Position numbers and translations under genes: made by a program
The notes under the pieces: model-generated
The model's database searches: none
What the model was told of the DNA's origin: nothing
Seen by the model: the letters and a program-made list of their open reading frames with translations, nothing else
DNA from: a virus
Taxonomy: Duplodnaviria > Heunggongvirae > Uroviricota > Caudoviricetes
Virus record (IMG/VR): IMGVR_UViG_3300041405_000130
Length of the DNA: 64,000 nt
Strand: one strand, 5' to 3'
Shown: positions 59,461-63,663 of the stretch, piece after piece
How the letters are laid out: every line of letters begins with the position of its first letter
How positions within the stretch are numbered: position 1 is the stretch's first letter

Positions 59461-59487
59461 AAATAATACTTTGAATGTAATAGTATA
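59461..59487 (+). promoter_or_regulatory. bipartite promoter AATAATACT-N10-TAGTATA for tRNA cluster 1
   Basis: Shares TGTAATAGTATACGAG with 62604-62632. Confidence 0.65.
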
Positions 59488-59570
59488 CGAGAGTAACTGC
59501 CGCAAGTATCATTGGGTTACCTAGCTTCTAGGACCACGTGAAAAAGCGGTGGGTACTGTCATGCTTGATG

Positions 59571-60140: not shown

Positions 60141-60226
60141 GGATGATGTAGAGACGGATGGCTACCGTCAGCGGCCTGTAACCCCGCCGGTTCTCCTAGA
60201 GGTTCAATTCCTTCCTTCATCCACCA
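60141..60226 (+). tRNA. trnY: atypical tRNA-Tyr-like gene (GUA)
   Basis: Anticodon loop CT GTA AC, T loop TTCAATT, A73-CCA; non-canonical acceptor and D stems. Confidence 0.6.
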
Positions 60227-60231
60227 ATGAT

Positions 60232-60315
60232 GCCCAGGCTTAGCTTAAACGGCAAAGCACTTGTCTTGCGCGGCGCGCAAGCAAGAGACATGCAGGTTCG
60301 ACTCCTGCCCAGGGC
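60232..60315 (+). ncRNA. tRNA-like RNA lacking an anticodon loop (pseudo-tRNA)
   Basis: D arm GCTT/AAGC, T arm GCAGG-TTCGACT-CCTGC; anticodon arm replaced by an 11-bp hairpin with a 3-nt loop; no CCA. Confidence 0.65.
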
Positions 60316-62603: not shown

Positions 62604-62628
62604 AAAATACTCGTAGTGTAATAGTATA
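62604..62628 (+). promoter_or_regulatory. bipartite promoter AAAATACT-N10-TAGTATA for tRNA cluster 2
   Basis: Recurrent motif. Confidence 0.65.
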
Positions 62629-62630
62629 CG

Positions 62631-62745
62631 AGTGAATGCCGTTAGTTCACCAAAAGAGCGTAAGAGCAAGAATCCCCTATAGCTTGCTCGGCAGGGACCA
62701 GGGATATCGGTTAGCCTGGTTTAACAAAAACCCGACCAAGATACA
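62631..62745 (+). ncRNA. structured leader or small RNA before tRNA-Trp
   Basis: Three hairpins: GTGAA/TTCAC, GAGCAAG/CTTGCTC, ACCAGG/CCTGGT. Confidence 0.45.
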
Positions 62746-62821
<76 letters not shown>

Positions 62822-62827
62822 TCTATA

Positions 62828-62900
62828 GAGAGTAACACCGGTTCGAGTCCGGTACTGTCGGTTTCCACCGGCGGTTCGTCTAGTGGCCTAGGACACTCTC
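62828..62900 (+). ncRNA. circularly permuted tRNA-Glu-like RNA, unit 1
   Basis: GAGAG-TAAC-[T arm ACCGG TTCGAGT CCGGT]-[acceptor ACTGTCGG-TTTCCA-CCGGCGGT]-TC-[D arm GTCTAGTGGCCTAGGAC]-A-CTCTC. Confidence 0.8.
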
Positions 62901-62905
62901 GCTTC

Positions 62906-62966
62906 GGAGGACGTTGGTGCAAATCCAACCAGCAATAGCTGTCGTCTAGTTAGACTAGGGCACTCC
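62906..62966 (+). ncRNA. circularly permuted tRNA-like RNA, unit 2 (short acceptor)
   Basis: GGAG-GAC-[GTTGG TGCAAAT CCAAC]-[CAGC-AATA-GCTG]-TC-[GTCTAGTTAGACTAGGGC]-A-CTCC. Confidence 0.7.
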
Positions 62967-62988
62967 ACCTATTCAGAAGAGAGTAATA

Positions 62989-63663
62989 ATGTTTGTCGAT
63001 ATCAGTAACTATTTGATAGCTACACCTCTACCGGTTTCTGATGAGAAACCAGTTGCACTGGAACTCCTTGGCTCTTTCGCCTTGGAATTATATCCAGAGG
63101 TAATTAGCCAAATGGCCGACGGTTCCATACAACTCTCTGCGCCCACATTAGGGGCGTCCAGTAAAAGCACACATCGCACTCGGTGCGAATGGAAAGAGCC
63201 AGTCTACTGGTCACTTACAGGTGCACCGCATCATTGGTCTCGGCAAGAGATGACGCTTACAAAGGTCAACTCAGCTAAGAAAGTAGTGATTGCACAAGTC
63301 CATGTCAAAGGAGCTACTACGCCACCACTAAAGGTCTTCTGGAATAAAGGGAAGATCACTGCTGGTTTCCGTACTAACTTCGATGACGCAATTATAAGCA
63401 ACTTCACTTTGTTGGAAGACGTTCCACTAGGTGTACCATTTAAGATCAGCATACACGTCACCACAGCCGGGTCCGTTTCAATATCGGTACTCTGCCAAGG
63501 GCGTAAGTCGATCTGCCCAGTGCTAAAGTTAGATAGTTCATGGAAAGACAAAACCTTCCAATTCCATGGTGGGGTCTACAATCAAATTGATTATTCAGAT
63601 ACCACTCCGGTAGATGATGGTTCAGTTTGCTTGATCCATGCATTAGCTACAACGCACGAATAA
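62989..63663 (+). CDS. polysaccharide lyase family 7 (alginate lyase)-like protein
   Basis: RTRCEWKE (about R-S-E-L-R), VIAQVH (QIH/QVH), FHGGVYNQ (about YFKAG.Y.Q); no signal peptide. Confidence 0.8.
   Translation: MFVDISNYLIATPLPVSDEKPVALELLGSFALELYPEVISQMADGSIQLSAPTLGASSKSTHRTRCEWKEPVYWSLTGAPHHWSRQEMTLTKVNSAKKVVIAQVHVKGATTPPLKVFWNKGKITAGFRTNFDDAIISNFTLLEDVPLGVPFKISIHVTTAGSVSISVLCQGRKSICPVLKLDSSWKDKTFQFHGGVYNQIDYSDTTPVDDGSVCLIHALATTHE

What the first reader, a model, noticed from the sequence alone, without database searches (positions are those of the whole stretch)
62828..62966. Tandem circularly permuted tRNA-Glu mimics (YrlA/Y-RNA-like architecture) downstream of tRNA-Trp
Unit 1 reads 3' half first: GAGAG (62828-32), variable loop TAAC, T arm (62837-53), acceptor 3' strand, TTTCCA loop, acceptor 5' strand (8 bp, 62854-61/62868-75), U8-C9, D arm, A26, then CTCTC (62896-900) pairing back with GAGAG. 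The D-arm segment TTCGTCTAGTGGCCTAGGACAC matches E. coli tRNA-Glu at 20/22 positions as I recall it, and TAAC is the tRNA-Glu variable loop. Unit 2 (62906-66) repeats the same topology with different sequence, a 4-bp loop-closed acceptor and GGAG/CTCC closure, so the fold rather than the sequence is conserved. Neither unit has an anticodon loop or a free CCA end, although unit 1's loop ends in CCA. Bacterial YrlA Y RNAs have this T-arm/closed-acceptor/D-arm order (established), but no Ro60/TROVE gene is in this window. The options are a phage Y-RNA-like mimic, a decoy for tRNA-Glu-recognising host factors (GluRS, toxins, nucleases), or a permuted tRNA needing ligation.
Basis: partly seen in the sequence, partly recalled or inferred. 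Interest (0 to 1): 0.9.

Follow-up and report, generated by a model that had tools for sequence, protein, structure and literature searches.

The report
Tandem handle-less Y-RNA-type tRNA mimics
A giant Pseudomonas phage encodes, right after its tRNA-Trp gene, two small RNAs shaped like tRNA-Glu turned inside out; this design is known from bacterial Y RNAs, but here it lacks both the Ro60 protein and the RNA handle that binds it, which offers a clean way to find out what such tRNA mimics bind.

Summary
Window 62828-62900 and 62906-62966 are two adjacent four-way-junction RNAs: closing stem, variable loop, T arm, loop-capped acceptor-like stem, U8-C9, D arm, A26, closing stem.

**Match to Y RNAs.** I built a covariance model from 13 unrelated viral Y-RNA modules; 10 of their 13 records carry a Ro60/TROVE gene. 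It scores unit 1 at 61 bits (E 2e-18) and unit 2 at 32 bits (E 9e-9). Tandem-tRNA junctions reach at most 16-30 bits.

**Conservation.** Unit 1 recurs in phage Psa21 and two metagenomic jumbo phages. Unit 2 recurs only in Psa21. Both show compensatory changes in the closing, T and acceptor-like stems.

**Differences from Y RNAs.** These units have no Ro60-binding handle. No TROVE gene was found in 5 of 5 complete relatives, and TROVE occurs in only about 4% of 201 sampled Pseudomonas genomes. All five relatives encode RtcB in the same RNA island, about 6 kb away in Psa21.

**A swap at the same locus.** Two sister phages carry instead an unpermuted tRNA-Glu look-alike with a 17-18-nt "anticodon loop". 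This suggests the tRNA-Glu body, not the topology, is what matters.

**Reading.** These are Ro60-independent tRNA-elbow mimics, acting as a decoy or cofactor. Maturation into a real tRNA is unlikely.

This scan has noted tandem permuted tRNA mimics on other DNA, beside DUF7873 or Ro60-like genes. Neither partner is seen here.

The parts
62616..62632 (+). Promoter-like motif GTGTAATAGTATACGAG, the probable start of the transcription unit that holds tRNA-Trp and the mimics (inferred)
   Evidence: A second copy with 1 mismatch lies at 59475, upstream of tRNA-His. The core GTGTAATAGTATACGAG is invariant in six related phages. No transcript data are available.
62633..62735 (+). Conserved structured leader between the motif and tRNA-Trp (several hairpins)
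   Evidence: RNAalifold on 6 phages predicts 30 pairs, 10 of them with compensatory changes.
62746..62821 (+). tRNA-Trp (CCA), a canonical tRNA
   Evidence: ARAGORN; Rfam tRNA model 60.5 bits.
62828..62900 (+). Unit 1: a YrlA-type permuted tRNA-Glu-like module. Closing stem 62828-32/62896-900; V loop 62833-36; T arm 62837-53; acceptor-like stem-loop 62854-75; U8C9 62876-77; D arm 62878-94; A26 62895
   Evidence: R1 61.1 bits, E 1.6e-18. The MFE fold reproduces the four-way junction. Homologues occur in Psa21, L006 and L192, with both-sided changes in the closing, T and acceptor-like stems.
62901..62905 (+). Linker GCTTC between the units, not conserved
   Evidence: The linker is GTACCC in Psa21. 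The single-unit phages run straight into the PL7 5' UTR.
62906..62966 (+). Unit 2: a divergent module of the same topology. Closing stem 62906-09/62963-66; V 62910-12; T arm 62913-29; 4-bp capped stem 62930-41; TC 62942-43; D arm 62944-61; A26 62962
   Evidence: R1 32.2 bits, E 8.5e-9, with all pairs canonical. It is conserved in Psa21, with a G-C to A-U swap in the T stem and U-G to U-A in the D stem.
62989..63663 (+). Downstream gene: PL7 alginate-lyase-like protein. It is probably on the same transcript and is not part of the RNA element
   Evidence: Pfam Alginate_lyase2, E 1.2e-36. It is 63% identical to chromosomal genes of fluorescent pseudomonads.

Best explanation
**What it is (about 0.9).** The stretch encodes two independently folding tRNA-shaped RNA modules of the kind that forms the effector domain of bacterial YrlA Y RNAs. 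Each has a T arm, a loop-capped acceptor-like stem and a D arm, closed by a 4-5-bp stem that stands in for the anticodon stem. The D arm and 4-nt variable loop are those of tRNA-Glu. Unit 1 keeps the nucleotides for the tRNA elbow (G18G19 with T-loop UUC, U8-A14, G15-C48).

**How it works (inferred, about 0.35-0.4).** The modules are transcribed with tRNA-Trp from a phage promoter about 130 nt upstream. They fold into L-shaped tRNA look-alikes that cannot decode or be charged. They have no Ro60-binding handle, the phage lineage has no Ro60 gene, and Ro60 is rare in the host genus, so they act without Ro60. They would occupy a protein that reads the tRNA(Glu)-type elbow and D arm, which may be the still unidentified effector proposed for the YrlA tRNA-like domain.

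**Setting.** The phage's RNA island also holds real tRNAs, other anticodon-less tRNA mimics and the RtcB ligase. In that setting the most likely roles are two: a decoy or sponge for a host tRNA-directed factor, or a cofactor for RtcB-centred repair.

**Possible processing.** Unit 1's 7-8-bp acceptor-like stem may also be nicked by RNase P, as shown for M. smegmatis YrlA.
For: **Shown here**
1. Both units match a covariance model of Ro60-associated Y-RNA modules. 10 of 13 training records carry TROVE. That model's own structure is backed by covariation: 13 of 19 pairs changed on both sides, 0 of 500 shuffles reach it.
2. Across the six jumbo-phage modules, 99% of cells are paired, against 27-53% when partners are slid. 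Nine pairs changed on both sides, with 0 of 500 shuffles. In the MAFFT alignment of unit 1 alone, 3 pairs changed on both sides, including the closing stem (A-U to G-C).
3. The model's hits start 6 nt after tRNA-Trp, and the units sit 5 nt apart. There is no room for a terminal handle. In Ro60 loci the modules sit about 150 nt apart.
4. TROVE is absent from 5 of 5 complete relatives. It was found in 8-9 of 201 sampled genomes of the host genus and in 0 of 5 tested pseudomonads, including a P. syringae.
5. RtcB is present in 5 of 5 relatives in the same RNA island.
6. Among the four relatives that carry a tRNA-Glu-type D arm, each has exactly one exact-type copy (plus the divergent unit 2 in Psa21). 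It is permuted downstream of tRNA-Trp in Psa21 and G006, and unpermuted with a 17-18-nt anticodon loop upstream of tRNA-Trp in G007 and G008. Psa21 has no real tRNA-Glu among its 8 tRNAs.

**From the literature**
- The YrlA tRNA-like domain is an L-shaped tRNA mimic. Its conserved D and T stems are predicted to bind an unknown elbow-reading protein.
- YrlA and an ordinary-looking tRNA (b7a-tRNA) appear interchangeable next to RtcB (10.1101/312249).
- M. smegmatis YrlA, which has a 7-bp stem, is cut by RNase P and receives CCA (PMC4201824).
Against: - No transcript, end-mapping, binding or phenotype data exist for any of these phages.
- The family is small: four distinct unit-1 sequences and two unit-2 sequences, all from one phage lineage. 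The covariation counts rest on few events.
- Thermodynamic z-scores of single units are weak, from -1.9 to 0, as is usual for tRNAs.
- Related phages do without the modules. D6 has none, and RVTF4, 201phi2-1 and three other jumbo contigs have none. The function is therefore dispensable or replaceable.
- RtcB is present whether or not the mimic is, so the linkage is not specific.
- A Ro60-shaped protein undetectable by Pfam was not excluded by structure prediction.
Confidence: 0.45

Rival explanations
1. Cis-acting processing or stability element. The tRNA-shaped modules serve as punctuation for RNase P, RNase Z or RNase E, or as a 5' protective structure. They would separate tRNA-Trp from the PL7 mRNA and set that mRNA's 5' end, with no trans-acting role.
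For: - The units lie exactly between tRNA-Trp and the PL7 start codon. In the single-unit phages the module ends about 20 nt before the ATG.
- One promoter-like motif precedes the whole block.
- RNase P cuts a YrlA with a 7-bp stem (PMC4201824).
Against: - L005 joins tRNA-Trp directly to the PL7 leader without any module and places its tRNA-Glu look-alike upstream of tRNA-Trp instead.
- L007 has a CDS between them.
- Processing signals would not need the tRNA-Glu-specific D arm and variable loop, which are kept exactly in all four phages.
Confidence: 0.2
2. True Y RNAs with a hidden partner. The modules bind a divergent Ro60-like ring protein, of phage or host, that Pfam TROVE does not detect, through a non-canonical contact.
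For: - Earlier notes of this scan (e1-5344638 and others) report phage Ro60-shaped proteins without sequence similarity next to such RNAs.
- Conserved unknown proteins flank RtcB in these phages.
Against: - There is no terminal helix or handle beyond 4-5 bp.
- TROVE was not found in 5 complete relatives even at E <= 1.
- No conserved protein gene is adjacent to the units. The upstream gene differs between the window and L006.
- The Atlas model of the 603-aa RtcB neighbour is uninformative.
Confidence: 0.1
3. Non-functional relic. The units are leftovers of rearranged tandem tRNA-Glu genes in a recombination-prone tRNA island rich in HNH endonucleases.
For: - The island is mosaic, and the modules are gained, lost or swapped between close relatives.
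- L007's unpermuted copy has a damaged acceptor stem and fails the tRNA model.
- Published models derive YrlA from dimeric tRNAs (10.1101/312249).
Against: - Compensatory changes occur in three helices at 75-85% overall identity.
- The acceptor spacer is trimmed to a 4-6-nt loop in every copy.
- Two different units are both kept between the window and Psa21, the most distant pair (75% PL7 identity).
Confidence: 0.07
4. Circularly permuted pre-tRNA-Glu. The ends are cut and joined, for example by the phage RtcB, and the capped acceptor stem is opened by RNase P or Z to give a working tRNA.
For: - The topology equals that of algal permuted tRNA genes.
- RtcB is encoded nearby in all relatives.
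- Unit 1 has a 7-8-bp acceptor stem.
- The window's linker happens to read GCTTCGG, which contains TTC.
Against: - Nothing that could become a 7-nt anticodon loop is conserved. The sequence after the closing stem is GCTTC, GTACCC, GCTTAT or GCCTAT.
- No CCA or N73 is conserved in the loop.
- The acceptor pairs are not those of tRNA-Glu.
- Unit 2 has only a 4-bp stem.
- No bacterial or phage splicing endonuclease is known for this.
Confidence: 0.04

Closest known systems
YrlA-type bacterial and phage Y RNAs (Rfam RF02553; Chen et al. 2014, PMC4201824; Wang et al. 2018, 10.1101/312249, PDB 6CU1)
   Same: - The module order is the same: V, T arm, capped acceptor-like stem, D arm.
- The near-invariant D arm (UCGUCUAGYGGCCYAGGAC) and the GGUUCGA T loop are the same.
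- There is no anticodon loop and no free CCA.
- Tandem arrangement of a strong copy and weaker copies is also seen at Ro60 loci.
- Both are genomically near RtcB.
   Different: - There is no long terminal stem or Ro60-binding site; the closing stem is only 4-5 bp.
- There is no TROVE gene in the lineage.
- The units are 77 nt apart start to start, instead of about 150 nt.
- They are embedded directly behind a tRNA in a nucleus-forming-type jumbo phage.
- They score below the threshold of the Rfam model.
M. smegmatis YrlA (7-bp acceptor-like stem, cut by RNase P, then CCA added; PMC4201824)
   Same: Unit 1 has a 7-bp stem (8 bp in the window) stacked on a 5-bp T stem. This is the main RNase P determinant.
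   Different: Cleavage was not tested here. Unit 2 has only 4 bp.
b7a-tRNA and other RtcB-linked tRNA-like RNAs (Burroughs and Aravind 2016, as cited in 10.1101/312249)
   Same: - Each is a tRNA look-alike encoded near RtcB without necessarily having Ro60.
- A permuted and an ordinary-order mimic appear interchangeable, which parallels the swap between window/Psa21/L006 and L005/L007.
   Different: No Band-7 gene was seen. The original paper was not available to me, so the sequences could not be compared.
Circularly permuted tRNA genes of Cyanidioschyzon and other algae (Soma et al. 2007, as cited in 10.1101/312249)
   Same: The 3' half precedes the 5' half, the acceptor stem is initially closed, and the ends meet in the anticodon stem.
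   Different: There are no nucleotides for an anticodon loop, no BHB motif was recognised, and there is no known endonuclease.
Double tRNA-mimic RNAs next to DUF7873, noted by this scan on other DNA (e1-2703945, e1-4274050)
   Same: Two tandem permuted tRNA-like modules, no Ro60, often inside phage tRNA clusters.
   Different: Those are described as one 360-400-nt RNA right after a roughly 245-aa DUF7873 gene. Here the two modules span 139 nt, and the upstream 237-aa ORF has no Pfam match and is not conserved in position.

Membership tests
YrlA / Y RNA (RF02553) | tRNA-like domain with the order V - T arm - capped acceptor-like stem - D arm, and conserved D and T sequences | tested here: met
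   R1, built from Ro60-adjacent modules, gives 61.1 and 32.2 bits full length. The structure is supported by covariation.
YrlA / Y RNA (RF02553) | Long stem formed by the 5' and 3' ends that carries the Ro60-binding site | tested here: not met
   The closing stem is only 5 bp (unit 1) or 4 bp (unit 2). tRNA-Trp ends 6 nt before unit 1, and unit 2 starts 5 nt after it. The GGTGCGCAGG...CCGACCCTGA-type flanks seen in the Ro60-linked loci are absent.
YrlA / Y RNA (RF02553) | Encoded within about 4 kb of a Ro60/TROVE gene on the same strand | tested here: not met
   No TROVE match at E <= 1 in 5 complete related phage genomes. ORFs near the element carry no TROVE domain. The window's own whole genome is not held.
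YrlA / Y RNA (RF02553) | Score at or above the Rfam gathering threshold (69 bits) | tested here: not met
   No YrlA hit on 62800-63000 even at E <= 10. The only YrlA hits in the window are tRNA-tRNA junctions of 20-28 bits. The 13 Ro60-linked training loci also fail this model at gathering, so the test is weak.
Canonical tRNA-Glu | Cloverleaf in normal order with an anticodon loop and a free acceptor end | tested here: not met
   ARAGORN finds none. The Rfam tRNA model gives only a 15-bit partial hit bridging D arm 1 and T arm 2.
Canonical tRNA-Glu | tRNA-Glu-type D arm and 4-nt variable loop | tested here: met
   21 of 22 identity to annotated E. coli tRNA-Glu. The same D-arm pattern retrieves about 100 real tRNA-Glu genes with CTTTCA anticodon loops.
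Circularly permuted tRNA gene | 3' half upstream of the 5' half, with the acceptor strands joined by a short intervening sequence | tested here: met
Circularly permuted tRNA gene | Flanks that, once joined, restore a complete anticodon stem-loop (conserved anticodon, BHB-like motif) | tested here: not met
   The flanks differ in all four phages and hold no conserved 7-nt loop. The BHB motif was judged by eye only.
DUF7873-associated two-headed tRNA-mimic RNA (earlier notes of this scan) | RNA lies directly downstream of a DUF7873 gene | tested here: inconclusive
   The upstream 237-aa ORF has no Pfam family at E <= 0.01 and is replaced by small ORFs in L006. Whole genomes could not be searched because I lacked the accession.

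The most novel reading that the evidence does not exclude
The active principle is a bare tRNA-Glu body: the augmented D helix, the 4-nt variable loop and the elbow. Phages can supply it in either permuted or normal strand order. It acts as a competitive ligand for a specific host protein that reads tRNA-Glu, such as GluRS, a GluRS-directed or tRNA-Glu-directed toxin or defence nuclease, or glutamyl-tRNA reductase. The same protein would be the long-sought effector of the YrlA tRNA-like domain in bacteria. These handle-less phage modules would then be natural minimal baits for identifying it.
Probability: 0.15. Interest if true: 0.85.

Novelty: new variant of a known kind. Interest (0 to 1): 0.62.

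Why it matters
The tRNA-like domain of bacterial Y RNAs has been known since 2014 and solved since 2018. Its binding partner and purpose remain unknown, and it has only been studied and searched for next to Ro60.

Here the same module occurs stripped of the Ro60 handle. It sits in a cultured, Ro60-less jumbo phage (Psa21) and its relatives, and it is interchangeable with a normal-order tRNA-Glu look-alike. That separates the tRNA-mimic function from Ro60 and provides a minimal natural bait for pull-downs.

It also adds to the picture that giant phages invest in a set of non-decoding tRNA mimics beside their tRNAs and RNA-repair enzymes. That is relevant to the current interest in tRNA-targeting anti-phage defences.

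Tried and rejected
- **Rfam YrlA model.** No hit on the element. It also misses the Ro60-linked viral Y RNAs, so it says little.
- **Alternative fold.** D arm 1 and T arm 2 could flank a short hairpin, CTC(T)CG-loop-CGGAG. This is possible in the two double-unit phages, but it shows no covariation. It cannot exist in the single-unit phages, whose closing stem does covary.
- **TTC in the window's linker and CCA in unit 1's loop.** Neither is conserved.
- **RVTF4 hit of 26.6 bits.** This is a tRNA-Cys/tRNA-Thr junction, not a module. The hits of 21-30 bits in L005 and L007 come from the D arm of the unpermuted look-alike or from tRNA junctions.
- **Metagenome scan.** It returned only one further phage, on two contigs. 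The exact unit-2 pattern and the unpermuted-element pattern found only the phages already known.
- **Sigma-70 promoter and terminator scan.** At shuffle level and uninformative for this phage type.
- **Looking for a partner protein.**
  - ORFs around the element and around RtcB have no RNA-binding family.
  - The Atlas model of the 603-aa RtcB neighbour is too poor to read.
  - DUF7873 could not be searched by name.
- **Burroughs and Aravind 2016.** The paper is not held.

Full report
**1. Setting**

The window comes from an uncatalogued jumbo Pseudomonas phage.
- Its nearest relatives are Psa21 (Tepukevirus), D6 and RVTF4, at 75-82% nucleotide identity over structural genes.
- No whole genome is held for it.
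- Positions 59.4-64 kb form an RNA island with six canonical tRNAs (His, Asp, Pro, Asn, Asn, Trp) and several unassigned structured stretches.

**2. The observation**

Unit 1:
- GAGAG / TAAC / ACCGG-TTCGAGT-CCGGT / ACTGTCGG-TTTCCA-CCGGCGGT / TC / GTCT-AGTGGCCTA-GGAC / A / CTCTC

Unit 2:
- GGAG / GAC / GTTGG-TGCAAAT-CCAAC / CAGC-AATA-GCTG / TC / GTCT-AGTTAGACTA-GGGC / A / CTCC

Supporting checks:
- ARAGORN and the Rfam tRNA model find no tRNA there.
- The D-arm stretch is 21 of 22 identical to annotated E. coli tRNA-Glu genes.
- The D-arm pattern retrieves about a hundred real phage tRNA-Glu genes with CTTTCA anticodon loops.
- Folded alone, unit 1 of the window and of Psa21 gives the four-way junction as the minimum-energy structure.
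- The z-scores are modest (-1.9 to 0), as is usual for tRNAs.

**3. What the architecture is**

I scanned IMG/VR with a pattern that joins unit 1's T loop to its D arm. It returned two classes of hit.
- *Tandem tRNA-X/tRNA-Glu genes.* These have an unpaired spacer and a real anticodon loop.
- *Thirteen further loci* (a 14th hit, L137, is L006's own contig). Here the spacer is a 5-9-bp stem capped by a short loop (about 2-7 nt), no anticodon loop follows, and long complementary flanks surround the module.

Ten of those 13 records carry a Ro60/TROVE gene, adjacent where I checked. They are therefore YrlA-type Y RNAs as defined by Chen et al. 2014 (PMC4201824).

Their alignment supports the four helices: 97% of cells are paired, 13 of 19 pairs changed on both sides, and 0 of 500 shuffles reach that.

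The covariance model R1 built from them was run unfiltered over the whole window.

| Hit | Score | E-value |
|---|---|---|
| 62827-62900 (unit 1) | 61.1 bits | 1.6e-18 |
| 62904-62967 (unit 2) | 32.2 bits | 8.5e-9 |
| tRNA-Asn/tRNA-Asn junction | 16 bits | next best |

- Both unit hits are full length with canonical pairs.
- In about 3 Mb of other jumbo-phage DNA, the best background hits are tRNA junctions or partial D-arm matches of 27-30 bits.
- Unit 1's score is partly by construction, because the training set was fished with its own pattern. Unit 2's score is not.
- The Rfam YrlA model does not hit the element. It also misses the 13 Ro60-linked loci at gathering.

**4. Conservation**

Where the units occur:
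- Psa21 has both units, after tRNA-Trp and tRNA-Ser.
- IMG/VR contig 3300042009_000026 (L006) has unit 1 only, between tRNA-Trp and the PL7 gene.
- The metagenome contigs RCUK01000114 and RCUS01001627 (L192, L191) likewise have unit 1 only.

Unit 1, MAFFT alignment of four sequences:
- 98.8% of cells pair, against 33-55% for slid partners.
- Three pairs change on both sides: closing stem A-U to G-C, T stem C-G to A-U or U-G, and acceptor-like stem G-C to A-U.
- By eye, the seventh acceptor pair changes G-C to C-G.
- The cap differs in every lineage: TTTCCA, ATTA or TTCG.

Unit 2, window against Psa21:
- The T stem changes G-C to A-U.
- The D stem changes U-G to U-A.

All six modules aligned to the model:
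- 99.1% of cells pair.
- Nine pairs change on both sides.
- 0 of 500 shuffles reach that.

The numbers rest on few sequences from one lineage, but they agree with the independent model match.

The closing stem covaries in phages that have only one unit. This rules out the alternative hairpin between the two units as the conserved fold.

**5. What is missing**

No handle:
- The model's hits start 6 nt after tRNA-Trp.
- The units are 5 nt apart, and the closing stems are 5 and 4 bp. There is no terminal handle.
- In Ro60 loci the modules repeat about every 150 nt, each with its own flanking stems.

No Ro60:
- TROVE is not found, even at E <= 1, in five complete related genomes: Psa21, D6 and three IMG/VR genomes.
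- It is also absent from five pseudomonad genomes, including a P. syringae.
- It occurs in only 8-9 of 201 sampled genomes of that genus.

No other protein partner seen:
- The ORFs next to the element have no RNA-binding family.
- The upstream gene is not conserved in position.

**6. Context**

- A 17-nt motif, GTGTAATAGTATACGAG, precedes a conserved structured leader and tRNA-Trp.
- Its core is invariant in six phages, and it recurs upstream of tRNA-His.
- I take this motif as the phage promoter of the block, which is an inference.
- The PL7 alginate-lyase-like gene follows. It was acquired from fluorescent pseudomonads, at 63% identity.
- All five complete relatives encode RtcB in the same island and in the same orientation. 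It lies about 6 kb from the units in Psa21.
I did not check that on this genome.

**7. A telling swap**

- Four of the five complete relatives contain a tRNA-Glu-type D arm. Each of those four has exactly one exact-type copy. Psa21 additionally has the divergent D arm of unit 2.
- In Psa21 and G006 that D arm belongs to the permuted unit 1, downstream of tRNA-Trp.
- In G007 (L005) and G008 (L007), the former being the window's closest relative by PL7 (87%), it belongs to a normal-order tRNA-Glu look-alike upstream of tRNA-Trp. That look-alike has a 17-18-nt "anticodon loop".
- L005's copy passes the Rfam tRNA model at 36 bits.
- D6 has neither form.
- Psa21 has no genuine tRNA-Glu among its eight tRNAs.
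- The lineage therefore keeps a non-decoding tRNA-Glu body in either topology. This parallels the proposed redundancy of b7a-tRNA and YrlA next to RtcB (10.1101/312249).

**8. Mechanism**

*Shown here:* the fold class, its conservation, the lack of a handle and of Ro60, and the linkage to the tRNA/RtcB island.

*From the literature:*
- The YrlA domain is a true L-shaped tRNA mimic.
- It is modified by tRNA enzymes.
- Its conserved D and T stems are thought to bind an unknown elbow-reading protein.
- A 7-bp acceptor-like stem makes it an RNase P substrate (PMC4201824; 10.1101/312249).

*Inferred:*
- The phage modules are made with tRNA-Trp and fold as tRNA look-alikes.
- They act without Ro60 by occupying a protein that reads the tRNA(Glu) elbow or D arm, as a decoy against a host factor or as a cofactor of the repair module.

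*From my own knowledge, not tested:*
- U11-A24, U13-G22, A46 and the missing residue 47 form the "augmented D helix" that GluRS uses to identify tRNA-Glu.
- Unit 1 keeps all of these features. This motivates the bolder reading that a tRNA-Glu-specific protein is the target.

*Maturation into a working tRNA is unlikely:*
- No anticodon-loop nucleotides are conserved, and neither N73 nor CCA is.
- The acceptor pairs are not those of tRNA-Glu.
- Unit 2 has only a 4-bp stem.

**9. Verdict**

The element is a new variant of a known kind: tandem, handle-less, Ro60-independent YrlA-type tRNA-Glu mimics in a jumbo-phage tRNA island.

Similar tandem permuted modules have been noted by this scan on other DNA, beside DUF7873 or Ro60-like genes. 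Neither partner is evident here. I could not search whole genomes for DUF7873.

Noticed in passing
window 62633-62735 (with L005, L006, L192, Psa21, D6): A conserved structured leader lies between a promoter-like motif and tRNA-Trp. RNAalifold finds 30 pairs, 10 with compensatory changes, in six phages. It matches no Rfam family.
   Followed up: partly
window 59475-59491 and 62616-62632: The motif (A/G)TGTAATAGTATACGAG occurs twice, upstream of tRNA-His and of tRNA-Trp. Its core is invariant across six related phages, so it is a candidate phage promoter for the RNA island.
   Followed up: partly
L005:3816-3899 and L007:3468-3552: A normal-order tRNA-Glu look-alike with a 17-18-nt 'anticodon loop' (GGCCACCATA..ACCAA) sits upstream of tRNA-Trp, in phages that lack the permuted units. 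L005's copy scores 36 bits on the Rfam tRNA model. L007's acceptor stem has two mismatches.
   Followed up: partly
window 60141-60222 and 60234-60314: Two odd tRNA-like genes. One is a weak tRNA-Sec-model hit (23 bits); ARAGORN calls the corresponding gene in L191/L192 tRNA-SeC(tca). The other is a 31-bit tRNA hit whose anticodon arm looks like a long GC hairpin.
   Followed up: no
L005:5079-5133: A 55-nt stretch downstream of the PL7 gene matches positions 330-384 of the bacterial 23S rRNA model (40 bits, E 3e-9). It may be an rRNA-fragment mimic in the same RNA island.
   Followed up: no
L016:1760-1835: Another jumbo-phage contig carries a tRNA-Glu-like gene whose anticodon arm appears to be replaced by an 8-bp stem capped with a UUCG tetraloop. 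This was seen by eye only.
   Followed up: no
window 62989-63663: The PL7 alginate-lyase-like gene is 53-63% identical to chromosomal genes of many fluorescent and putida-group pseudomonads. It looks like a host-derived acquisition sitting among RNA genes.
   Followed up: partly
L123, L148, L182 (IMG/VR): Ro60-encoding viral contigs carry arrays of three or four tRNA-like Y-RNA modules, spaced about 150 nt apart in the tightest runs. Each array has one strong copy (about 82-85 bits) and several weaker ones (24-38 bits).
   Followed up: no
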